DNA of 64,000 nucleotides. Source: a virus. Its lineage: Duplodnaviria; Caudoviricetes. Location of the stretch: the IMG/VR virus record IMGVR_UViG_3300035208_002115. One strand, written 5' to 3'. This document shows, piece by piece, positions 2,915 to 59,888 of the stretch. Made by a program: the position numbers and the translations under genes. Every line of letters starts with the position of its first letter. The first letter of the stretch is position 1. A model generated the notes under the pieces. It searched no databases and had not been told where the DNA came from. It worked only from the letters and a program-made list of their open reading frames with translations.

Positions 2915-4168
2915 TTATTTTAAATAATCACTTTCGAATTCATTAAATACAGCATATGCTGTTATACCAAGACATATAAACAAAGATAAAATAATATTAA
3001 GAATCACTGCCCATCTTGGTGGTTCAATCCTAAGATAAGAAAAACCTTCTGTCGGACTTGTAAATTGTATTCTTTGAAATTTCTCGTGTAACTCGATTTG
3101 TAAATAATCGGCTATTTGATACCAAACTTTATCATTCAATCTTGGGAGTTCCCTGAAATAATTTTTTAAATCGGTTTCTAATGTACCCGACTTGGCAAAT
3201 GAATGAGAAAACGGATAAATCCAAACTATCGAATCATTATTATCTAAGCCAAGACATATAGTTACTTCATTCTTATTACCACCCACCCAATAAGATTCTT
3301 GTAGTAATCCAACATCAACTGGTTTATTTTTAAATACACATAAAAATACACGACATGAATCCTCACTTCCAATCCAGCCATTTAAAGCGTTATAATATTC
3401 TTGAACTTTAGGTGATATATTTTCACCCAATATGATATCTTGATAAAAATAATTTTTGGGTTCGGGTAAATCGTATAAACCATATTCCCTAATATCGGCA
3501 GTATCGACTTTCTGATAACCAAACACAGAATAATCAGTATTTTTTAAACGATTTTCATAAGTATTTCTAACTACAACACCAGTTTGTTTAGAAAGAGGAT
3601 AATTTATAGGAATATTTGATTCATATTTATTTGATATCTGACCTACTTTTTTATGATAAAACTTAGATTTGTTATTCCAACAGAGGTCAGCCCAATCATT
3701 CGGTGCATAATTTTTATACTGTTTTATAACACTTCTTTGTCCACCAATTTTATTTAAAAAATAATAGTAGTCTTGCTCGTTGAGATTAATTTTTTGTCCT
3801 ATATTAGTTTTTAACTCCCAGTCTGCACAATAATCATCCTGATGAGAACAATCATAATATTCGGTACAATATTTGGTATTACCATCTTTATCAGTACCAC
3901 ATGAATAACTTCTGGAACAAGTTTCATGATGCCACTCATTATATGGTTCTCGTTCGTATAAATTAGTCATCACAGAACCATAATATTCAGTTGTTTTGGT
4001 TTTTTGGTTGATTACAATCGAAATAAAGGCAAGAGAAAAAAGAAATGGGATTATTACTATTAATAACATCTCCCACCAAGTAACACGCAATCTGAGTTGT
4101 TTTACAGCTAAGATTATTATAATAATCAAAGCAGAAAAAAATATGTTAATAAAATAATCTATTCCCAT
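2915..4168 (-). CDS. Membrane protein with Cys-rich extracytoplasmic domain
   Basis: Two N-terminal TM helices, one C-terminal TM helix, CSRSYSC...YCTEYYDC segment. Confidence 0.7.
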   Translation of the reverse strand: MGIDYFINIFFSALIIIIILAVKQLRLRVTWWEMLLIVIIPFLFSLAFISIVINQKTKTTEYYGSVMTNLYEREPYNEWHHETCSRSYSCGTDKDGNTKYCTEYYDCSHQDDYCADWELKTNIGQKINLNEQDYYYFLNKIGGQRSVIKQYKNYAPNDWADLCWNNKSKFYHKKVGQISNKYESNIPINYPLSKQTGVVVRNTYENRLKNTDYSVFGYQKVDTADIREYGLYDLPEPKNYFYQDIILGENISPKVQEYYNALNGWIGSEDSCRVFLCVFKNKPVDVGLLQESYWVGGNKNEVTICLGLDNNDSIVWIYPFSHSFAKSGTLETDLKNYFRELPRLNDKVWYQIADYLQIELHEKFQRIQFTSPTEGFSYLRIEPPRWAVILNIILSLFICLGITAYAVFNEFESDYLK

Positions 4169-15513: not shown

Positions 15514-16068
15514 GTGAAATATATTAGATTATATGAGAGTTTTATATCGGGAATTTTTTATCATGGTTCGACTGATAAAAATTTATCAGGAAAAAAAGGT
15601 ATTCATGTGGGAACTAAATTAGCAGCAACACAAGCTTTAGAAGCAAGAATAGGTGTTCCAGCAGTTGGTGAATGGGATGGTACAAGAGAATATGGTAAAA
15701 CATTACTTGCAGGTAAACACTCACTTGAAACAAAACCAGAAAATAAATGGAAATGTACAGGTTTTAATTGTGGCAAGAATATACCAGAAGATGATTATTA
15801 TCCCACACAACGAAATGAAAGAGCTGAATATAGTGATAGAACCCCCATATCATTTGATTGTAAACCAATAATATTTCCTGTCAAAATAATAGGGAAAATG
15901 ACAAATACACCATATAACTGTCATTCTGATGTAAAGGCAAATAGTCTAATGTTAAGAAATTTAAAAATGAATAACGCTAAAAGTGGTTATTATTATATTA
16001 ATGATGGTGAAGATAGTGGTTCTGTTTCGGCAGTTGTTCCAGATAAAACTTTTTTAGAAATATTATGA
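15514..16068 (+). CDS. Leader-bearing protein (MKYIRLYESF) with ADP-ribosyltransferase-like domain
   Basis: FYHGS...GIHVGT...YINDGED. Confidence 0.6.
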   Translation: MKYIRLYESFISGIFYHGSTDKNLSGKKGIHVGTKLAATQALEARIGVPAVGEWDGTREYGKTLLAGKHSLETKPENKWKCTGFNCGKNIPEDDYYPTQRNERAEYSDRTPISFDCKPIIFPVKIIGKMTNTPYNCHSDVKANSLMLRNLKMNNAKSGYYYINDGEDSGSVSAVVPDKTFLEIL

Positions 16069-16622
16069 AGTATTTAAAATTATATGAAAATTTCAAAGAT
16101 GTTATCACTAAATGTGATGGTTGTAAATATTTTGATATGAATAATATAGGAAATATTTATGCAGCATATGAAAATCCAATTTATTCATTAGTTTATAAAA
16201 GAAAAATTGAAGAATTAATATTTATGAAACCAAAACAATATATTTACACCATCGCTCAAAATTTTGGTGGATTATCTTATGACGATGCCATATCACATGT
16301 CAGTGATGAAAAAGTTGATAAATATGTTGAAGCTATGAAAAATGGTGCAAAATTTCCTGTCGGTAATTATCAAGAAAAATCTTCATTACAAGAAGGTAGA
16401 CATCGTGCAATAGCAATGATTAAATTGGGTTGTGAAACTATGCCCATTATAAAAATAACGATGGATGTACCTAATGATTATATAAATGAAATTGTTAGTG
16501 AAATAAAAGATATGAGTAGAGAAGAACTTAATCAATATTATATAAACAAAGGTTATCAAGGAATCACAAATTTAGACTGGAGTGAATTACATTCATATAT
16601 AAAATATAAATATCAAGAATGA
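16065..16622 (+). CDS. Leader-bearing protein (MKYLKLYENF) with ParB/Srx-like domain
   Basis: KVDKYVEAMKNGAKFP...QEGRHRAIA. Confidence 0.6.
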   Translation: MKYLKLYENFKDVITKCDGCKYFDMNNIGNIYAAYENPIYSLVYKRKIEELIFMKPKQYIYTIAQNFGGLSYDDAISHVSDEKVDKYVEAMKNGAKFPVGNYQEKSSLQEGRHRAIAMIKLGCETMPIIKITMDVPNDYINEIVSEIKDMSREELNQYYINKGYQGITNLDWSELHSYIKYKYQE

Positions 16623-17011
16623 AATATTTAAAATTATTTGAAAATTTTACAGATATTATAACATTATATCATGGAACATGTTTAGATAATGCTAAAGAAT
16701 TAGTTAAAAATGGTTGGAAACCTTTTAGTGGTATAGTCGGTGGTAATATGGGACAAAATAATTATTTATACGTAACATCCGAAATAGAAGATGCTTTATG
16801 GTTTGCCGAAGAAAAAGGTTGTAATACAATAATTGAAATAAAAAATATACCTATTAATTATTTAAAATTTGACCCAGAAGATGGTGATGCAGATTTATAT
16901 AATTATAATATTAATGTGGCAATTAATAAATTAAAAAATGGTTATGAATCACCAATAAAATTTGTTATAATACACGAACTTAGTGCTGATAAATTTAAAA
17001 TTATACAATGA
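16619..17011 (+). CDS. Leader-bearing protein (MKYLKLFENF) with ART-like domain
   Basis: LYHGT...NGW...YLYVTS...ALWFA. Confidence 0.6.
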   Translation: MKYLKLFENFTDIITLYHGTCLDNAKELVKNGWKPFSGIVGGNMGQNNYLYVTSEIEDALWFAEEKGCNTIIEIKNIPINYLKFDPEDGDADLYNYNINVAINKLKNGYESPIKFVIIHELSADKFKIIQ

Positions 17012-17553
17012 AATATTTAAAATTATACGAAGAATTTAATGAAGATGAAGAAAAATATAAAACCGTTGAACTTGGTAGTGTCACTAATGAAAATGGTTGG
17101 AGAATTCATAAATTAAATTCATATGAGGAATTAAAATTTATTTTAGATAATTTTTATCAAGGTAAAAAATGGATTCATAATGAAAATGGTTTTGATATTT
17201 ATTATTGGGAAAACACAGACTGGGATAAAGATGAAAATGAACCATTCTGGTATAAAAAAATGGTAATATCTATTAATCCCAGAGAATTTATAATAAAGAC
17301 TAAAACATTGGAAGAAAAACCATTATATTCTATTAGAGACGAAAAAAATGGAATGACCAGAGAACAAGAATTAAAATTGCGTACTTGGATAGGTACTTCT
17401 AAAAACCCAAAAAGTGGTGAATTAAAAGGTGGTTATTTTGGAATGAAAAATGGGTTTGCCTTGATGAGAAGTCCTTTATCTGGTACAGTTTATAAAATAG
17501 ATAAAGATGGTGAAATGTTCAATAATAGTACGGGTGAAAAATTAGGAGAATAA
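17008..17553 (+). CDS. Leader-bearing protein (MKYLKLYEEF), unknown payload
   Basis: ORF, shared leader. Confidence 0.65.
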   Translation: MKYLKLYEEFNEDEEKYKTVELGSVTNENGWRIHKLNSYEELKFILDNFYQGKKWIHNENGFDIYYWENTDWDKDENEPFWYKKMVISINPREFIIKTKTLEEKPLYSIRDEKNGMTREQELKLRTWIGTSKNPKSGELKGGYFGMKNGFALMRSPLSGTVYKIDKDGEMFNNSTGEKLGE

Positions 17554-17554
17554 T

Positions 17555-18052
17555 ATGAGAATTATTAAAACATTCGAGAATTTTAATGAAAAAAATATTA
17601 ATGAATATATAGCATATCATTCAACCAACCATACAATAAAAGAATTTAATTTTGATGATATTGATATCGGTGCTGGGTCATCAACAAGAATAGATGGTAT
17701 TTTTTTTAGTAATATTCCACAAAAATCATGGGGTGAATATACATATAAAGTAAAAATTATTTCTGAAAACCCAGCAATTTTTAATTTAAATAAGAGTCGA
17801 TTAGATAGTCTGGGTGTACAAGAACTCTTTGATGCATTTTTAAGAGGTGAGACATCATACATGTTAGAAGATTTAATTGATAATGGTGGTATGGAAGAAG
17901 ATGTAGCAGAACAATTAATAGACCAATGGGAAAAATTAGATTTAATTGTAATTACACATCAAATATATGCTAAACATGATATTGAATATATAGTACCAGC
18001 CCCATATTATAATAGTAAAAGTGCTGAAATAATTAATTTAGGATTAATATGA
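17555..18052 (+). CDS. Leader-bearing protein (MRIIKTFENF) with ART-like domain
   Basis: AYHST...FNF...GIFFS...WG...EYIV. Confidence 0.6.
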   Translation: MRIIKTFENFNEKNINEYIAYHSTNHTIKEFNFDDIDIGAGSSTRIDGIFFSNIPQKSWGEYTYKVKIISENPAIFNLNKSRLDSLGVQELFDAFLRGETSYMLEDLIDNGGMEEDVAEQLIDQWEKLDLIVITHQIYAKHDIEYIVPAPYYNSKSAEIINLGLI

Positions 18053-18621
18053 AAAAAATAAAAACATTTGAAAATTTTTTATTAAAAGAATATAATAACA
18101 CTGATTCATTTCTCTCTGACTATGAAAGTGCTAAAAAATATGCTTATGATAACATAGATGGTGTTTCAGATGCATTTGATGATTATAAAGAAGACCCAGA
18201 TAACATACAGGCATCTTATAGTAGAGATAATTATATAGAAAGAATCGATATGTATGTTGATAAATACAATAAATTAAAAAACGAATATAATATAACAATT
18301 TATCGTTTAATAAAATTAAATTCCATTGATGATTTAGATTTAACAAATATTGGAAAACACTGGAGTTTTGAACAAGATGGTGTTGGAGCTTATGGAGAAC
18401 AACATCCAAATAGGGATATGATGTCAACGGGTAAACCATTTATTTTAGAGGCAGAAGTAAGTCCTAAAAATATAGACTGGGTGTATGGATTTAATTCATT
18501 TATATGGTACGGAGAAGACCAATGGGAATGTGCATTAAATAAAGGAACAAAAGTCACTATAAATAAAATAAATGATGATGAACTGAAAACACCCATTATT
18601 GCGTTAGTGGGTGAACATTAA
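18049..18621 (+). CDS. Leader-bearing protein (MKKIKTFENF) with R-S-E-type ART-like domain
   Basis: IYRLI...HWS...EDQWE. Confidence 0.55.
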   Translation: MKKIKTFENFLLKEYNNTDSFLSDYESAKKYAYDNIDGVSDAFDDYKEDPDNIQASYSRDNYIERIDMYVDKYNKLKNEYNITIYRLIKLNSIDDLDLTNIGKHWSFEQDGVGAYGEQHPNRDMMSTGKPFILEAEVSPKNIDWVYGFNSFIWYGEDQWECALNKGTKVTINKINDDELKTPIIALVGEH

Positions 18622-18634
18622 AAAATATTTAATT

Positions 18635-19054
18635 ATGAAACATCTAAAATTATTTGAAGAATTTAATGATAAGCGAATAATCGGTTATCATGTAACCAAT
18701 CAATCCAATTTAAAAAGAATTTTAAAAACTGGATTAGAACCACGAGTTCCCGAAGATTTTGGTGAAAAGGGTGATGTAAAAGGGGTTTATTTATTTAAAA
18801 CAGCATCGGACACTGATAATGCACTGAGTAATTGGTTTGGTGAAAGAATAGAAGAATGGGAAGAAGAACATGATAAAGAATTTAAAGAGTGTATTTTAGT
18901 TGTTGATTTAACTGGTTTAGATTTATATAATTCTGTTGAATTTGAATGGACTTGTTTAGAACATATATCACCAGATAGAATAATTCAAGTAATTAAAAAT
19001 AATGAACAAGTCTTAGGTATATGGGATGAATTATCTAAAAAATATGACTATTAA
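18635..19054 (+). CDS. Leader-bearing protein (MKHLKLFEEF) with ART-like domain
   Basis: Start reassigned to the ATG at 18635; GYHVT...ILKTGLEP...GVYLF...EW...HISP. Confidence 0.6.
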   Translation: MKHLKLFEEFNDKRIIGYHVTNQSNLKRILKTGLEPRVPEDFGEKGDVKGVYLFKTASDTDNALSNWFGERIEEWEEEHDKEFKECILVVDLTGLDLYNSVEFEWTCLEHISPDRIIQVIKNNEQVLGIWDELSKKYDY

Positions 19055-23158: not shown

Positions 23159-26083
23159 ATGAACAACAAAACATGTTTAGTTATGAAAAAGATTTTTCTA
23201 TTGATAATTTTTTTTGTATATAGTATACATATCATCGGACAAGATTGTAGTATTATATCAAAAGCAAATGATATTCTTCCCACCGATTTATGTTCTCCAG
23301 TATCTGTTGATTGGACTATAACTTATAGAGGTGTAAATAATAATAGTACACCAGTAATTATTCGTTATGATTGGGATGATGGTACAGTTCAAACCGTTCC
23401 AGCCACAAATACCAATCCAGACCCAACTGTACGTGAATGGAGCGCAATTTTAAACCACACTTATAATTCAAATAATCAATGTAATTATCAACCTTCTGCC
23501 ACTTTAATTGTTAATGGTCAAGTGTGTACATCATCTGAACAACAACAAATTGTAACTGTATGGGATGATGATAATCATAATGGTGGTCGTCTAAGAATAA
23601 CACCAACTATTTATCCTATTTGTTTTGGTAATAGTGCCAATGTTCGTTTTAGGGATGTTACAAGATTTAACTGTGTTCCACCACAAGAAAATGATGTTCC
23701 GAATTTAGAGACAAGGTGGATTCAATGGGTGTATGGTACAGATATTACGATGACTGGTACACCAGTCACTATAAATGGTGTATCACAAACCTTCCCTTAT
23801 TATGGAAATATTATTACTCTACCAGCACCAGTATCTGGTTCTGGAATTTATAGTCAATGGTTAAATGTTGCTAATGATAAGTTAATAGGACAATATTTTC
23901 AAGTTACGTTAAGATATTGGAATTATTGTAATCCATATGATGACCCAAACATACCCGGCCTACCAACCGACTTAATCAATGGGGACAATGACCCTGTTAC
24001 AACCACTGCTATTATATTAATAGTACCGTATCCAGATGCAACAATAAATAAAACGCCAGATATTTGTCGAACTGCGAGTCCAATAAATCTAACTGCTATT
24101 ACCAATGGTGGTACGTGGTCAGGAGTTGGTATAATAAATGCAACAAGTGGTTTATTTTCACCGACAGTTGCAGGTTCTGGACAACATGTAATTAGATATG
24201 ATGTAACTGATGGAAATGGATGTAGTAATTGGGATACTGCAATAGTAAATGTATTATCAACACCCGTTGTTAATATAACTGATTTTGCACCAATATGTTT
24301 TACAACAGATACATTTGATTTAGATGTAGATTTTCCTCTTGGTATGTGGTCTGGTGACGGAATAACTGATAATACACTTGGGTATTTTTCACCAACACGA
24401 ACAGGAGATTATACAATTAGTTTTTCAACACCACCTGATACGAATGGTTGTGTGGGAGTTGACCAAACAACAATTACAGTATATGATTTACCAAATGCTT
24501 GGTTTGTAACCAAGGATTCAGCCTTTTGTGATAATAATGTTAATATTATACCAATTGAGATACACATTGAACTTTTCGGTGGTGTGACTAATTTAATATT
24601 ATCAAGAAATGGTGTATCTCAAACTATAAACAATATTACTACAAATCAAATATCAGTCAATGATACAATTGATACTAATGGTTTATATGATTATAATTTG
24701 ATTAGTATAACAGAATATCATGATTCATTGGTTTGTTCAGCTTCATTGAGTGATTCAATAGAATTAGATGTTTATCCACTTCCTAATTCGGAATTTACAA
24801 TAATGACTGATAATTATTGTAGTCCTGTCATAGCTAATTTTACAGCACAAACTGGTTATTTTAGATATGATTGGAATTTTAATGATGGTGCATCAGAAAC
24901 AAATTCTTTGACATCATTAGTTCATGGATATGTTAATAACACAATAATCGATACCACATTTCACCCAACTTTGACGGTTTACACAAACAATAATTGTGTA
25001 TCAACAACTACACATGATATTCATATTTATCCAAGGCCAATTGCTGATTTTTTTGTTGCACCGATAGAACAGATATTACCAAGCTCGACTGTTTTGTTGG
25101 ATAATTTAAGTAATGCAGGTAATTGGATGTATTATTGGAACTTTGGTGATGGAACTTTTAATAATGTGAAAGAACCATCGACCCATACATATATGAATTA
25201 TGGTGAGTATCGAATTTTTTTAAGAACATACAGTTTATATTGTTCTGATAGTCTTACTAAATCTATTTTAATACTTCCACCACCACCATCAGCTCGTATT
25301 GAATCTGATTCATCTGGTTGTCCACCATTAATTATGAGTTTTAAAAATTATACCTCATATGCTGAGAGTTTCATATGGGATTTCGGAGATGGGTTTTATT
25401 CAACTGAATATGAACCGACACATACATTTTATGAAAGTGGAACATATAATATCGTTATGACTGCTTATGGTATGAGTGGTATAACAAAAGATTCGGTTAA
25501 TATTACAATATATTCTCATCCAATTGCAATGTTTAATGTGTATCCTGAAGAAGCGGTTGACTTGAATCAAATATTCAAATTTTATAACACATCAATAGAT
25601 ATGAGTAGATGCTATTGGTTATTTGGTGATGGTAATACATCAACTGATGAACACCCATCATATTCTTATTCAAGCGAAGGCGTGTATGATATAACATTAT
25701 ACGTATGGAGTGAAAATAATTGTACGGATTCAATAATAAAAGATAATTTAATTAGAGTTAATTCAGATAATGGTCAAATAATATTTCCAAATGCTTTTAA
25801 ATGGAATCTCACTGGCTCTACTGGTGGGTATTGGAATAATAATATAATTGATAATACAGTGTTCAGACCACACCCAACAAACGTTTCTGAATATAGGTTG
25901 GAAATTTATAATAGGTGGGGAAACTTAATTTATCAATCTGACCAATTAGAAAAGGGTTGGGATGGGTATCTTAATGATGGAATGCATTTGGCTGAACAGG
26001 GTGTATATGTCTGGAAATGTTGGGTGACTTATACATCTGGAAGAAAAGAAATATTAAGCGGTTATGTAACGTTTTTACATTAA
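23159..26083 (+). CDS. PKD-repeat protein with T9SS type-B (gliding-motility-associated) C-terminal sorting domain
   Basis: Signal peptide, multiple WxFGDG PKD units, C-terminal FPNAF...IYNRWG...GWDG...QGVY...GYVTF. Confidence 0.9.
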   Translation: MNNKTCLVMKKIFLLIIFFVYSIHIIGQDCSIISKANDILPTDLCSPVSVDWTITYRGVNNNSTPVIIRYDWDDGTVQTVPATNTNPDPTVREWSAILNHTYNSNNQCNYQPSATLIVNGQVCTSSEQQQIVTVWDDDNHNGGRLRITPTIYPICFGNSANVRFRDVTRFNCVPPQENDVPNLETRWIQWVYGTDITMTGTPVTINGVSQTFPYYGNIITLPAPVSGSGIYSQWLNVANDKLIGQYFQVTLRYWNYCNPYDDPNIPGLPTDLINGDNDPVTTTAIILIVPYPDATINKTPDICRTASPINLTAITNGGTWSGVGIINATSGLFSPTVAGSGQHVIRYDVTDGNGCSNWDTAIVNVLSTPVVNITDFAPICFTTDTFDLDVDFPLGMWSGDGITDNTLGYFSPTRTGDYTISFSTPPDTNGCVGVDQTTITVYDLPNAWFVTKDSAFCDNNVNIIPIEIHIELFGGVTNLILSRNGVSQTINNITTNQISVNDTIDTNGLYDYNLISITEYHDSLVCSASLSDSIELDVYPLPNSEFTIMTDNYCSPVIANFTAQTGYFRYDWNFNDGASETNSLTSLVHGYVNNTIIDTTFHPTLTVYTNNNCVSTTTHDIHIYPRPIADFFVAPIEQILPSSTVLLDNLSNAGNWMYYWNFGDGTFNNVKEPSTHTYMNYGEYRIFLRTYSLYCSDSLTKSILILPPPPSARIESDSSGCPPLIMSFKNYTSYAESFIWDFGDGFYSTEYEPTHTFYESGTYNIVMTAYGMSGITKDSVNITIYSHPIAMFNVYPEEAVDLNQIFKFYNTSIDMSRCYWLFGDGNTSTDEHPSYSYSSEGVYDITLYVWSENNCTDSIIKDNLIRVNSDNGQIIFPNAFKWNLTGSTGGYWNNNIIDNTVFRPHPTNVSEYRLEIYNRWGNLIYQSDQLEKGWDGYLNDGMHLAEQGVYVWKCWVTYTSGRKEILSGYVTFLH

Positions 26084-27265: not shown

Positions 27266-27502
27266 ATGGATATTGTTTATGAGTTTTTATATAATAGTTC
27301 TTGTTGCGAAAGTGCAGCTCACACAATGAGTATTCATAAAACCCAACGGGGTGCTGAAATAGCTATGGAATTTCATAGAAATGAAAAGAAAAACGAGTAT
27401 GATGAATTGATGAATGGTTATTATGATGAAGAATATAAAGAAGAATACCCTTATGATTTTGACCAATGGTGGGAAATAAGGGAAACTGAATTACAAGATT
27501 AA
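27266..27502 (+). CDS. Hypothetical protein
   Basis: ORF in operon. Confidence 0.6.
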   Translation: MDIVYEFLYNSSCCESAAHTMSIHKTQRGAEIAMEFHRNEKKNEYDELMNGYYDEEYKEEYPYDFDQWWEIRETELQD

Positions 27503-27827
27503 CTAACAAGCTTATAAGCCATTTCAGTGAGTTTAGAACTCAATTTTATTTTATACTTTTCAGCATTATTTGGTTTAATCTCAAATTTTAATTTATCATC
27601 TATAACCACAAAATTTATAACCGAATCATCATTTATAGCACCATTTTTTTCGGTTATTATTAAAGTACTACTATTTATTTTAGATAAAATGACTGATAAT
27701 TCTTTCGTTTTAGAAAAAGGTATAAATAAAATTTGACATTTTGTAATTTCTTCAACACTATCGAAATGTTTAACTATAATTGTTTGTGTTCCGACAGTCT
27801 TCTTATTTGAATAAGAATTAATTTCAT

Positions 27828-29051
27828 ATTTTTTGAACAGGAAACACCGAAATCTTCAGTTTCGGTGAGGAATGTTCAGCCTATTATTTTTTAAAACTTT
27901 TTACAGTTTTTAATATATATATTAAAAATGAACATCACATTAAAAATTAAATTAGAACCCACTGAAGAACAAAAAATTTTTCTTTTACAGACATTGAAAG
28001 AAACTAATGATGTTTGTAATCTGATTTCTGATTTTGCATGGGGTGACAAAATATTCAACAAATTCAAATTACACTATCAATTATATCACAAATTGAAAAA
28101 TTCTACTGATTTGAGTAGTCAAATGTTAGTAAGATGTTTTCAAAAAGTAAGTTCTTCTTACAAAGTAGATAAGAAACGTAAAAGAATATTCAAAGAATAT
28201 GGTTCTATTGCATATGATTCCAGAATATTAACATATAATTTACATAATAATATTATATCTATTTGGTGTATAGGAGGTAGACAGAAAATTAAATTCGTAA
28301 CACATAATCAAGAATATTTAAAATATATTAAAGGTGAAGGTGACTTAGTATACAAAAAAGGTAAATTTTACATATATCAAACTATCAATGTACCAGAAAA
28401 AAAGCTAATAATTAATAATGATTATTTAGGTATTGATATGGGGATTACTGATATTATTGTTACATCAGATAATTTACATTATTCTTCTGATGTTTTAAAT
28501 GAATATAGGGAAAAAAGACAAAGAATTCGTAGTTCTTTACAAAGCAAAGGTACTAAGGGGTGTAAAAAACTCTTGAAACAATTAAGTGGTAAGGAAAGAA
28601 CACATTCAAGTATTATTAATCACACTATTTCTAAACAATTAGTTAATAATGCTATCGAAACTAAAAGAAATATAGTATTAGAAGATTTAAAAGGAATTAG
28701 GTTTAACAACAAAAGAAATTCAAAGAAATTTAGAATTAAATTAGGAAAGTGGAATTTTTCACAATTAAGACAGTATATTGAATACAAATCAAAAATAAAT
28801 GGTGTTCAATGTATGGTAGTACAACCTAATTATACAAGCCAAACTTGTAATTGTTGTAAACATATTGGTAAAAGAAATGGGAAAGAATTCAAATGTGAAA
28901 ACTGTGGATTAACAATAGATGCTGATTATAATGCAGCATTGAATATTAGTTTACTTGGGGGTGCTATAAATCGCCCTGAACAATCAACTATGTACTGTTG
29001 TATATAGTTAGGTTGAAAACCGCTAAATCTTTTAGTTTAGCGGTAGTTTAT
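27828..29051 (+). mobile_element. IS200/IS605-family (IS1341-like, TnpB-only) element
   Basis: Left hairpin CACCGAAA-TCTTCAG-TTTCGGTG (27845-27867); right hairpin ACCGCTAAA-TCTTTTAG-TTTAGCGGT (29019-29044), element ending TAGTTTAT; inserted 3' of TTCAT; ends fixed by reconstructing the split gene. Confidence 0.85.
27928..29007 (+). CDS. tnpB: RNA-guided endonuclease TnpB
   Basis: RuvC motifs GIDMG, VLEDL, DADYNAA; Zn ribbon YTSQTCNCC...CENCG. Confidence 0.93.
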   Translation: MNITLKIKLEPTEEQKIFLLQTLKETNDVCNLISDFAWGDKIFNKFKLHYQLYHKLKNSTDLSSQMLVRCFQKVSSSYKVDKKRKRIFKEYGSIAYDSRILTYNLHNNIISIWCIGGRQKIKFVTHNQEYLKYIKGEGDLVYKKGKFYIYQTINVPEKKLIINNDYLGIDMGITDIIVTSDNLHYSSDVLNEYREKRQRIRSSLQSKGTKGCKKLLKQLSGKERTHSSIINHTISKQLVNNAIETKRNIVLEDLKGIRFNNKRNSKKFRIKLGKWNFSQLRQYIEYKSKINGVQCMVVQPNYTSQTCNCCKHIGKRNGKEFKCENCGLTIDADYNAALNISLLGGAINRPEQSTMYCCI

Positions 29052-29452
29052 TATAAGCATCTTTAGACCCATAAACACCAATAACAAAATCATTCGTTTT
29101 AGTTTCGGCTGGAAATTCTATTAAACGAGTGAAATTATAGATAAACATAGCTTGTGTTCTTTGAATAGTGTTTTGACTATACAAATTGAATAATATAAAA
29201 CAAAAAATTATTATACTTATCATCTTTTTCATAATATTATTTTTAAATATATTTTTTATACGCCTTATACTTTATATGGTTACATATTATGAGCAATATG
29301 AAAATATAAATCATAATACACATACTTACAAATAGTTAGGATTATTAATTATATCATATTAAAAATAAATCAAACCTTTTAATGATTTATTAATACAATT
29401 GTTATAGGTGGTTCTTAATATATAGATTCAAAGAACACATTTATATAAAAGA

Positions 29453-40385: not shown

Positions 40386-40458
40386 CGAGCCAGACAGGAC
40401 TCGAACCTGCGACCAATGAATTTAAAGTCCATTGCTCTACCAACTGAGCTACTGGTTC
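40386..40458 (-). tRNA. tRNA with anticodon UUA (ochre suppressor), Lys-like body, no encoded CCA
   Basis: Cloverleaf: acceptor GAACCAG/CTGGCTC+G; D arm GCTC-AGTTGGTA-GAGC; anticodon arm ATGGA-CTTTAAA-TTCAT; T arm GCAGG-TTCGAGT-CCTGT; anticodon at 40423-40425. Confidence 0.9.
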
Positions 40459-40467
40459 ATAATTGAA

Positions 40468-40475
40468 CAAAAATA
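40468..40475 (-). promoter_or_regulatory. Bacteroidetes-type promoter TATTTTTG upstream of the tRNA
   Basis: TAnnTTTG about 10 nt upstream of the tRNA 5' end. Confidence 0.55.
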
Positions 40476-58869: not shown

Positions 58870-59277
58870 ATGAGTTTAAATATGTCATTTATTAAAAATT
58901 ATAACATTTTTATAAACGAAAATATATCTGATGTTAAATTTATCAAACAATATATAGAAAAAACAAATCCACATACTGGTTCAAGAGATGCGTTTCAGGG
59001 AATAGGTCGTTTATCGGATTTTACTTGGAATGTTAAACAAACTTTAATTCAACCAGATGATAAAAAAATAGATTTGGATGATTTATATCCAGCATCTAAA
59101 TTAGATGTTAAGCGATATAAAAAAGCCTATTTAAAGGGGAGTGAATTTCCACCAATAGTACTGGTTGACAAAGGAAATAAATATACTATTTTAGATGGCG
59201 CACATAGATTGAAAGCTGCTATTGAATTGGATGTTCCAATAAGGGCATACATTGGTTATGAAATAAAAAATAAATAA
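58870..59277 (+). CDS. Leader-bearing protein (MSFIKNYNIFINE) with ParB/Srx domain
   Basis: FPPIVL...YTILDGAHRLKAA. Confidence 0.8.
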   Translation: MSLNMSFIKNYNIFINENISDVKFIKQYIEKTNPHTGSRDAFQGIGRLSDFTWNVKQTLIQPDDKKIDLDDLYPASKLDVKRYKKAYLKGSEFPPIVLVDKGNKYTILDGAHRLKAAIELDVPIRAYIGYEIKNK

Positions 59278-59296: not shown

Positions 59297-59330
59297 TTTG
59301 TCATTATGTCAGAAAAAGGTTTTATATTTG
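59297..59330 (+). promoter_or_regulatory. Bacteroidetes-type promoter (TTTG...TATATTTG) upstream of the pth locus
   Basis: -33-like TTTG at 59297-59300, -7 TATATTTG at 59323-59330. Confidence 0.6.
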
Positions 59331-59401: not shown

Positions 59402-59761
59402 ATGAAAGAAACATAAATTTACAACAGACTTTACGTAATCACTCGAAGTGATTTACATCCTTCTACTCAGGCGGTTCAAGCCATACATGCTGGTATTCAA
59501 TTTCAGCATGAACACCCAGAAATTTCAAAATCATGGAATGAATTATCTAATTATTTAGTCTTTTTGTCAGTTAATGACGAAAGGGAACTCCTATCTATTC
59601 ATTCTAAAGCAACTCAACAAGGTATTAAAGCGAGTGTTTTTCAAGAACCCGATTTGAATAATCAGGTTACTGCTATTACATTAGAACCAAGTTCTGATAC
59701 GAGAAAACTATGCTCTAATTTACCCTTGGCATTAAAAAACGTAAGTTTTAACAAAAATTAA
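59402..59761 (+). CDS. pth: PTH2-family peptidyl-tRNA hydrolase with an in-frame TAA at codon 5 (59414-59416)
   Basis: MKET*IYNRLYVITRSDLHPSTQAVQAIHA...FQEPDLNNQVTAITL...LPLAL; the track ORF 59564-59761 is only the C-terminal half. Confidence 0.85.
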
Positions 59762-59771
59762 TTTTAAAGTT

Positions 59772-59816
59772 ATGAAAGACACATAAATTTTCACACGAGG
59801 TTCACCAAGTCCATAG
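59772..59816 (+). other. Second minigene MKDT* with in-frame readthrough extension IFTRGSPSP*
   Basis: TATGAAAGACACATAAATTT (59771-59790) matches 59401-59420 at 19 of 20 positions. Confidence 0.7.
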
Positions 59817-59888
59817 TTAAAAATTAGGATTTTGAACAAAAATTATTTAAACAAAAATTATTTAAAAACAAAAAACAAAAATTTAATT

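What the first reader, a model, noticed from the sequence alone, without database searches (positions are those of the whole stretch)
59402..59761. Peptidyl-tRNA hydrolase gated by an in-frame UAA, with an ochre suppressor tRNA in the same genome
Seen: after a Bacteroidetes-type promoter the sequence reads ATG AAA GAA ACA TAA ATT TAC..., i.e. MKET* followed in frame by a full PTH2-family domain (LYVITRSDL...QAVQAIHA...FQEPDLNNQVTAI). No in-frame ATG/GTG/TTG lies between the TAA and the TTG at 59564, and that TTG would omit the conserved QAxHA motif. The same window encodes a UUA-anticodon tRNA at 40386-40458. Known: Pth recycles peptidyl-tRNA after drop-off, and lambda bar-type minigenes cause such drop-off. 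Inference: full-length Pth is made only when UAA is read through, either via the phage suppressor or when release factors are limiting or inhibited. That would be a termination-stress sensor and tRNA-rescue switch. I am not aware of this arrangement being described.
Basis: partly seen in the sequence, partly recalled or inferred. Interest (0 to 1): 0.92.

Follow-up and report, generated by a model that had tools for sequence, protein, structure and literature searches.

The report
Ochre-gated phage operon with suppressor tRNA
A giant phage that uses the normal genetic code keeps a deliberate UAA stop codon near the start of a tRNA-hydrolase-like gene and in the small leader of the next gene, and carries its own UAA-reading tRNA, so both genes are most likely switched on only when that tRNA overrides the stop; relatives use the same design with UAG.

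Summary
Confirmed, and larger than reported. The TAA at codon 5 of the Pth2-fold gene is not an error: contigs of two studies match the window exactly. 133 of 148 related loci keep an early in-frame stop (129 TAG, 4 TAA), mostly with a CUA tRNA nearby (62 of 65 well-flanked loci). Where the gate is TAA and a suppressor tRNA is visible, it is UUA; this switch arose at least three times. These genomes are not TAG-recoded. A second gate follows: leader MKDT-TAA-IFTRGSPSP-stop, whose 3' end pairs with the start codon of the next gene. That helix covaries across 79 loci, so readthrough should also open the downstream gene. Readthrough by the phage tRNA is the best reading (0.8). What the switch senses, whether the leader stalls ribosomes, and whether the protein hydrolyses peptidyl-tRNA (canonical Lys absent, DAG replaced by EPD) are untested; AUU initiation is not excluded here. 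I found no paper describing it. Other agents of this scan reported the same module, amber and ochre, on other genomes.

The parts
59323..59330 (+). Bacteroidota-type -7 promoter-like box (TAnnTTTG), 72 nt before the leader ATG; weak evidence
   Evidence: motif not enriched in the window
59402..59416 (+). Gate 1: ATG-AAA-GAA-ACA-TAA (MKET*), stop at 59414-59416, A at -3 of the ATG
   Evidence: conserved in 133 of 148 loci
59417..59761 (+). Body of the Pth2-fold protein (114 aa; 119 aa with leader and readthrough residue)
   Evidence: Pfam PF01981; model pLDDT 91.6 and TM 0.77 to A. fulgidis Pth2 3erj
59772..59816 (+). Gate 2: leader ORF MKDT-TAA(59784-59786)-IFTRGSPSP-TAG, member of a conserved M-K-x-stop-I-x-x-R-(P/G/S/A)-P family
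59810..59821 (+). 5' arm of the predicted attenuator helix (last Pro codon, TAG and five more bases)
59882..59893 (+). 3' arm of the helix: initiation region and ATG 59889 of the downstream gene
59889..60350 (+). Downstream gene, 153 aa, basic and helical, no family or fold match; homologs follow gate 2 in about 20 loci
40386..40458 (-). tRNA with anticodon UUA (ochre suppressor type); tRNA-Lys-like body, G73, one A.C mismatch in the acceptor stem, no encoded CCA
40468..40475 (-). TAnnTTTG promoter-like box 10 nt before the tRNA; weak evidence

Best explanation
A two-output translational switch keyed by a phage tRNA in a standard-code phage. SHOWN in sequence: two early in-frame UAA gates, a UUA tRNA, conservation of the design, and matching of stop codon to anticodon. 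INFERRED: (1) by default ribosomes start at AUG 59402 and AUG 59772 and terminate after four codons; no Pth2-like protein is made and the next gene's start stays locked in the 59810-59821/59882-59893 helix. (2) When charged UUA tRNA outcompetes release factors, gate 1 gives the 119-aa Pth2-like protein, and at gate 2 the ribosome runs to the Arg-Gly-Ser-Pro-Ser-Pro-stop end, probably pauses there, covers the 5' arm and frees AUG 59889. (3) The tRNA is a key and not a recoding tRNA: only its anticodon loop is conserved, so it is probably charged by a host enzyme that reads U35 (LysRS or GlnRS, from established E. coli suppressor work) and the inserted residue does not matter. (4) The signal is the ratio of charged suppressor to release factor. 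I judge it most likely (about 0.55 given the gate) to rise under translation stress, when cognate tRNAs are damaged or sequestered or release factors are tied up, inducing tRNA-rescue functions; a timer or dose limiter is the alternative.
For: Early stop in 133 of 148 loci, at codon 3-5 in 111. CUA tRNA in 62 of 65 well-flanked TAG-gated loci, often within 150 nt to 2 kb. UUA tRNA goes with a TAA gate in this window, L127/L227 and L229, and with a TAA-gated RGPP leader in L081, L152 and L224; CUA goes with a TAG leader in L173 and L179. Five ungated loci have neither leader nor suppressor tRNA in the DNA held (L063, L075, L077, L085, L086). TAA forms sit on separate branches next to TAG forms (L229 with L171, L127 with L126, support 0.96), and both gates switch together. 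No code 15: 828 Gln codons in the domain bodies are all CAA/CAG, and TAG ends 31 of 439 conserved neighbours. The leader's terminal stop differs from its gate in 77 of 79 loci. Helix: own-locus duplex -9.5 kcal/mol against -5.4 (sd 0.23) for swapped loci and -4.1 for shuffles; its 5' arm starts at least 10 nt past the gate in 65 of 67 loci, median 3 nt before the terminal stop. tRNA bodies vary freely (discriminator A 64, G 29, U 19, C 2).
Against: No expression, proteomic or ribosome-profiling data. UAA ends 55 of 74 long ORFs here, so an efficient ochre suppressor would be costly; the tRNA must be weak or conditional. The tRNA lies 19 kb away on the other strand, unlike most relatives. ATT follows the gate in 80 of 133 loci although ATT and ATA are equally used in the window, which also fits AUU initiation. 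The window's own helix is not significant alone (z -1.56), and blocking the 5' arm raises AUG accessibility only from 0.00 to 0.11-0.16 in the model. Exceptions: L119 (TAG gate, odd UUA call), L178 and L237 (suppressor, no gate found in the DNA held), three well-flanked TAG loci without a tRNA in range.
Confidence: 0.8

Rival explanations
1. Non-AUG start: the Pth2-like protein starts at AUU 59417 (possibly when IF3 is low, or by re-initiation after the MKET minigene), and the tRNA is not needed.
For: ATT follows the gate in 80 of 133 loci against 4 ATA; an IF3-like gene family lies near 12 loci (judged from sequence); 22 loci have an ATG, GTG or TTG after the gate, and in Catera and Myrna the annotated GTG follows the TAG at good Shine-Dalgarno spacing.
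Against: 30 loci have GTA/GTT after the gate and 19 have no near-cognate start before the domain. The AUU always has U at -3, whereas the leader ATG has A at -3 in 91 of 132 loci (A-3 is a positive determinant, PMC6847099). It does not explain the stop/anticodon matching, nor gate 2, where AUU initiation would give a 4-9 aa peptide.
Confidence: 0.07
2. The gates sense release-factor shortage through ordinary near-cognate readthrough, as prfB does through its frameshift; the suppressor tRNA is a passenger or a first step towards recoding.
For: Standard-code phages with suppressor tRNAs were read as precursors of recoding (10.1101/2021.08.26.457843). RF1-like genes near about 15 related loci carry in-frame TGA or a CTT-TAG-C junction, which would be RF-sensing without a matching tRNA in view.
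Against: The tRNA sits beside the gated gene in most loci and changes anticodon with the gate several times independently; ungated loci tend to lack it.
Confidence: 0.07
3. Gating by the tRNA is real but is only a timer or dose limiter: readthrough follows tRNA transcription or keeps a harmful hydrolase low, with no stress sensing. This rival concerns step 4 only and overlaps with the best explanation.
For: Here the tRNA is transcribed separately, 19 kb away. Timing by recoding has been proposed for lysis genes (10.1101/2021.08.26.457843).
Against: In many relatives the tRNA lies 110-250 nt upstream of the gene on the same strand, so separate timing is hard; a dose limiter would not need a second gate with an on-switch helix.
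Confidence: 0.3
4. Sequencing error, private nonsense mutation (pseudogene), or genome-wide reassignment of the stop codon.
For: Several database proteins show Gln at this place (P0001, P0003, P0004, P0009).
Against: Two assemblies agree; the stop is conserved at 45-60% protein identity; two gates in one operon; UAA is the main terminator here; no TAG at any of 828 Gln positions in the bodies. The Gln records are probably gene calls under code 15 (P0009 has the same N-terminus as L027, which has TAG; their own DNA was not fetched).
Confidence: 0.02

Closest known systems
Stop-codon-recoded phages with suppressor tRNAs (code 15 crAss-like and Lak, code 4; 10.1101/2021.08.26.457843, PMC9523058)
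   Same: Phage-encoded tRNA with a stop anticodon; in-frame stops proposed to control when genes are made.
   Different: No genome-wide reassignment; one stop per target at codon 3-5; UAA is used, the main terminator; the tRNA body carries no fixed identity; target is a Pth2-fold gene and a leader.
Leader-peptide translational attenuation with RAPP-like arrest motifs (SecM RAGP, ApdA/ApdP RAPP, RGPP; PMC10987492, PMC12992588); ermC/cat-type induction (own knowledge)
   Same: Short upstream ORF ending in Arg-x-Pro; a helix that hides the next start is opened by ribosome position.
   Different: The motif is reached only after stop readthrough; the peptide is 8-14 aa with no secretion signal; the motif abuts a stop codon; the window's RGSPSP is not a tested arrest motif. 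PMC12992588 has no occurrence of 'stop codon', 'phage' or 'RGSP'.
prfB (RF2) autoregulation at an in-frame UGA (own knowledge)
   Same: An early in-frame stop lets a translation factor gene read out termination efficiency.
   Different: prfB bypasses by +1 frameshift and senses its own product; here the frame is unchanged and a dedicated tRNA matches the stop.
Archaeal/eukaryotic Pth2 (PF01981; TIGR00283) and the PTH2 genes noted in jumbo phages and cluster C mycobacteriophages (PMC7824862, PMC5966550)
   Same: Fold (TM 0.77), QxxHA helix, conserved Thr; found in phage tRNA regions.
   Different: Lys of the GK motif absent, DAG replaced by invariant EPD; the passages found in those papers mention no internal stop or suppressor.
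E. coli ochre suppressors derived from tRNA-Lys (supG, supL; own knowledge)
   Same: UUA anticodon on a tRNA-Lys-like body (best E. coli match tRNA-Lys, 88-91%).
   Different: Natural, conserved, and paired with its own target codons.

Membership tests
Pth2 peptidyl-tRNA hydrolase | PF01981 above gathering score and Pth2 fold | tested here: met
   36.9 bits against 23; Foldseek E 1.2e-8, TM 0.77 to 3erj
Pth2 peptidyl-tRNA hydrolase | Equivalog cut-offs (TIGR00283, PRK04322) | tested here: not met
   32.7 against 82 and 29.4 against 126 bits
Pth2 peptidyl-tRNA hydrolase | Lys of the GK motif and Asp of DAG (catalytic Lys18/Asp86 of P. horikoshii Pth2, from memory) | tested here: not met
   Lys column is Tyr/Gln/Thr; DAG aligns to invariant EPD. 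His24, Glu77, Pro78, Asp79 are invariant in 154 sequences, so a different active or binding site is likely
Pth2 peptidyl-tRNA hydrolase | Hydrolysis of peptidyl-tRNA | not testable with these tools
   needs an enzyme assay
Stop-codon-recoded phage (code 15 or 4, or UAA reassigned) | The stop is used as a sense codon across many genes | tested here: not met
   TAA ends 55 of 74 long ORFs and no other start-less coding frame was found in the window; relatives: ORF coverage gain for TAG 0.06, same as for TGA
Stop-codon-recoded phage (code 15 or 4, or UAA reassigned) | Phage tRNA with matching stop anticodon | tested here: met
RAPP-like arrest peptide leaders | RAPP/RGPP/RAGP-like motif near the C-terminus of an upstream ORF | tested here: inconclusive
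   window RGSPSP; family RPP 21, RGPT 12, RAPT 5, RAPP 4, RGPP in L081, L152, L224, L165; Arg and Pro codons vary synonymously, so selection is at peptide level
RAPP-like arrest peptide leaders | Helix hiding the downstream start that the ribosome opens | tested here: met
   locus-specific pairing in 79 loci; prediction only
RAPP-like arrest peptide leaders | Arg-dependent ribosome arrest | not testable with these tools
   needs toeprinting or ribosome profiling
prfB-type frameshift autoregulation | Shift site (CUU-stop-C) with the body in the +1 frame | tested here: not met
   the body is in frame 0 with the leader
tRNA-Pyl (ARAGORN label for the CUA tRNAs of relatives) | Short D-loop without GG, 6-bp anticodon stem, no TTC in the T-loop (own knowledge) | tested here: not met
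   relatives have ordinary GG D-loops, 5-bp stems and TTC T-loops
lambda bar-type toxic minigenes | Very short ORF causing peptidyl-tRNA drop-off | not testable with these tools
   the four-codon ORF is present; drop-off cannot be computed

The most novel reading that the evidence does not exclude
The tRNA is a purpose-built sensor: having no synthetase identity beyond its anticodon, it becomes charged and active only when the host's cognate tRNA pool (Lys or Gln) is cleaved or locked up as peptidyl-tRNA, or when release factors are trapped by host defence. It then unlocks, through matched stop-codon gates and an arrest-peptide attenuator, a counter-defence pair (a Pth2-fold enzyme of altered specificity and an unknown helical protein). 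This would be a new class of riboregulator and would explain orphan suppressor tRNAs of standard-code phages.
Probability: 0.4. Interest if true: 0.92.

Novelty: new variant of a known kind. Interest (0 to 1): 0.8.

Why it matters
It gives the unexplained suppressor tRNAs of standard-code large phages a conserved, concrete target and shows them co-evolving with it. It predicts a testable genetic switch built from a tRNA, two stop codons and a leader helix, with amber versions in cultured mycobacteriophages. The ochre form is the best natural control: lock and key changed together, in a genome where UAA is the main stop. It also means the gene is routinely mis-annotated (truncated to 65 aa here, or given a Gln start under code 15).

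Tried and rejected
No whole genome held, so other tRNAs, release factors and gated genes outside the window could not be checked. Look-up of the 65-aa TTG product found no record. No RNA holder listed. First UUA-tRNA pattern was mis-spaced and found nothing; corrected. The seven exact matches of the leader pattern in viral contigs are unrelated chance matches. My first scans for leaders in ungated loci missed those that run on past RGPP; the looser scan found them. Downstream protein: no Pfam (172-aa form), PHROG, NCBIfam or Atlas hit and no fold match above background; this does not show a new fold. The three downstream families are not detectably related. Sigma-70 scan at chance level; no plus-strand terminator between gate 2 and the next gene, so transcriptional attenuation is not supported. 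No structure around gate 1 (z -0.8). One tree script returned nothing and was rerun with FastTree. Powers et al. 2005 (PMC2253226) not held, so the Pth2 catalytic residues rest on memory. Ten paper searches found no description of the module; most subscription papers are not searched.

Full report
1. Observation. The window reads ATG AAA GAA ACA TAA at 59402-59416, then 114 open codons to TAA 59759-59761. The frame matches Pfam PTH2 above cut-off and has no ATG/GTG/TTG before 59564, which is why gene callers report a 65-aa fragment (P0005, on a 678,337-base contig). The only tRNA in the window has anticodon UUA at 40386-40458, minus strand. Contigs of two runs from two studies (landfill 2018, groundwater 2022) cover gene and tRNA without a differing letter; they may be the source, so this excludes a one-off assembly slip more than it shows spread. 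The window is from a large tailed phage (T4-type terminase); a CHU_C type IX secretion domain and A-rich starts without Shine-Dalgarno suggest a Bacteroidota host (inference).

2. The stop is a conserved feature. Of 148 distinct homologous loci from viral, metagenome and genome collections, 133 have an ATG, 1-12 codons and an in-frame stop just before the domain: 129 TAG and 4 TAA; the stop is codon 3-5 in 111. The base after the stop is a purine in 132 of 133 and the next codon is ATT in 80. Large GenBank phages of 462-735 kb have the TAG form, and cultured mycobacteriophages Catera and Myrna have ATG-TAG-GTG and GTG-TAG-GTG with a CUA tRNA just downstream, although there the annotated GTG may be the true start.

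3. It is not recoding. In the domain bodies all 828 Gln codons are CAA or CAG; conserved neighbours end in TAA 345, TGA 63, TAG 31; reading TAG through raises ORF coverage no more than reading TGA through. In the window TAA ends 55 of 74 long ORFs, and the Pth2 frame is the only start-less coding frame found.

4. Lock and key change together. A CUA tRNA lies in 62 of 65 well-flanked TAG-gated loci and in 100 of 126 overall, many of the rest being short contigs. Starting from UUA tRNAs instead, four of seven records with a clean UUA call hold a homolog: two have TAA gates in the gene (L227, the same element as L127, and L229), one has a TAA-gated RGPP leader upstream (L224), and one shows no gate in the 1.5 kb held. 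L081 and L152 also pair UUA with a TAA leader, and L173 and L179 pair CUA with a TAG leader. Five ungated loci have neither leader nor suppressor in the DNA held. On a FastTree tree, L229 is sister to TAG-gated L171 and L127 to TAG-gated L126 (support 0.96), and the window lies elsewhere with weak placement, so the ochre form arose at least three times. The 126 distinct suppressor tRNAs share the anticodon loop (CU-CUA-AA in 82) but not acceptor stem or discriminator. The window's tRNA is closest to tRNA-Lys in E. coli.

5. A second gate. Ten bases after the Pth2 stop, the leader 20-mer is repeated: MKDT-TAA-IFTRGSPSP-TAG at 59772-59816. Equivalent leaders (M-K-x-stop-I-x-x-R-P-P, -R-G-P-T, -R-S-P) occur at 79 distinct places, in front of at least three unrelated families of unknown small proteins. 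In all TAA-gated loci with enough flank the leader gate is TAA too (window, L127, L141, L229). The terminal stop differs from the gate in 77 of 79. Folding 59750-59920 pairs 59810-59821 with 59882-59893, hiding AUG 59889. Across loci, the leader end pairs with its own downstream start region at -9.5 kcal/mol on average, against -5.4 for swapped partners and -4.1 for shuffles; related loci are not independent, but the swap control keeps composition and shared motifs. The 5' arm begins beyond the reach of a ribosome stopped at the gate in 65 of 67 cases and around the terminal stop. In a constrained fold, a ribosome at the gate leaves the start region closed (0.22 unpaired) and one at the leader's end opens it (0.54-0.59; AUG itself 0.11-0.16).

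6. The proteins. The Pth2-like protein folds like archaeal Pth2 (TM 0.77) but falls far below the equivalog cut-offs, lacks the GK lysine and has invariant EPD for DAG. It works like a Pth2-fold tRNA-acting enzyme; membership as an active peptidyl-tRNA hydrolase is not established. The downstream 153-aa protein is helical and unassigned. Neighbours of relatives include RF1-like, TROVE and poly(A)-polymerase/CCA-type genes and tmRNA, a tRNA-repair and ribosome-rescue setting.

7. Mechanism. Best reading (0.8): both genes are off unless charged UUA tRNA beats release factors at the gates; gate 1 makes the enzyme directly and gate 2 opens the next gene by ribosome position. The signal is inferred. 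Release-factor sensing alone needs no tRNA (prfB, own knowledge), and the gate tolerates both UAG and UAA, so the tRNA's own supply or charging is probably part of the signal. Because stop-anticodon tRNAs without identity elements are charged by LysRS or GlnRS in competition with cognate tRNAs (own knowledge of E. coli suppressors), loss of cognate tRNA would raise readthrough, the right sign for a rescue loop. A timer or dose limiter remains possible (0.3). AUU initiation (0.07) is weakened by the 19 loci with no near-cognate start and by the -3 base (PMC6847099), but the ATT excess is unexplained.

8. Comparison and novelty. It shares parts with recoded phages, RAPP-type leaders and prfB, and fails a defining test for recoding, prfB and tRNA-Pyl. 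Surveys that list phage PTH2 do not mention the stop in the passages found. Ten searches found no description. Other agents of this scan described the amber and ochre forms on other genomes; these are unchecked notes and not independent support, except where I retested a lead (L081). I rate it a new variant of leader-controlled translational attenuation and programmed readthrough, interest 0.8. What this window adds is an ochre case with two nearly identical gates, a distant tRNA, and a covarying attenuator helix.

Noticed in passing
L005:5765-6446, L022:3355-3873, L054, L057, L065, L076, L079, L080, L083, L084, L138, L150, L154, L168, L046: RF1-like genes (PPT motif) about 2 kb upstream of the Pth2-like gene are themselves interrupted: two in-frame TGA in some, and a CTT-TAG-C junction with the body in the +1 frame in others, like the prfB shift site but with UAG.
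   Followed up: partly
L217:2474-2482 (Catera), L218 (Myrna): TAG directly before the annotated GTG of the peptidyl-tRNA hydrolase gene; the Catera tRNA annotated as tRNA-Arg at 3106-3177 has anticodon CUA by ARAGORN.
   Followed up: partly
window 27502-29271: A TnpB/Cas12f1-like gene (27928-29007, +) lies between a signal-peptide-bearing ORF start (29035-29271, -) and a start-less coding-like frame (27502-27855, -): probably one gene split by an IS200/IS605-type insertion.
   Followed up: no
window 23159-26083: 974-aa PKD-repeat protein with a CHU_C type IX secretion signal, a Bacteroidota-type protein carried by the phage.
   Followed up: partly
suppressor tRNAs of L027, L029, L052, L114 and others: Recurrent mismatches in the acceptor stem (two adjacent in four loci) and at the 31-39 pair; they may tune these tRNAs to be weak suppressors.
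   Followed up: no
window 59830-59870: Direct repeat of about 15 nt (AACAAAAATTATTTA) in the loop between the two helix arms.
   Followed up: no
L010, L023, L028, L044, L092, L098, L123: Two CUA tRNAs with different bodies in one locus.
   Followed up: no
window 15514-19054, 51974, 56491, 60476-60868, 63174-63821: Many unrelated genes begin with a shared MKYLKLFE/YE-like N-terminus.
   Followed up: no
window 58870-59277: ParB-like small protein directly upstream of the operon (weak TIGR00180 match).
   Followed up: partly
L240/L227 Pth2-like gene: Frameshift near residue 70 relative to the near-identical L127 copy; assembly error or a broken copy.
   Followed up: no
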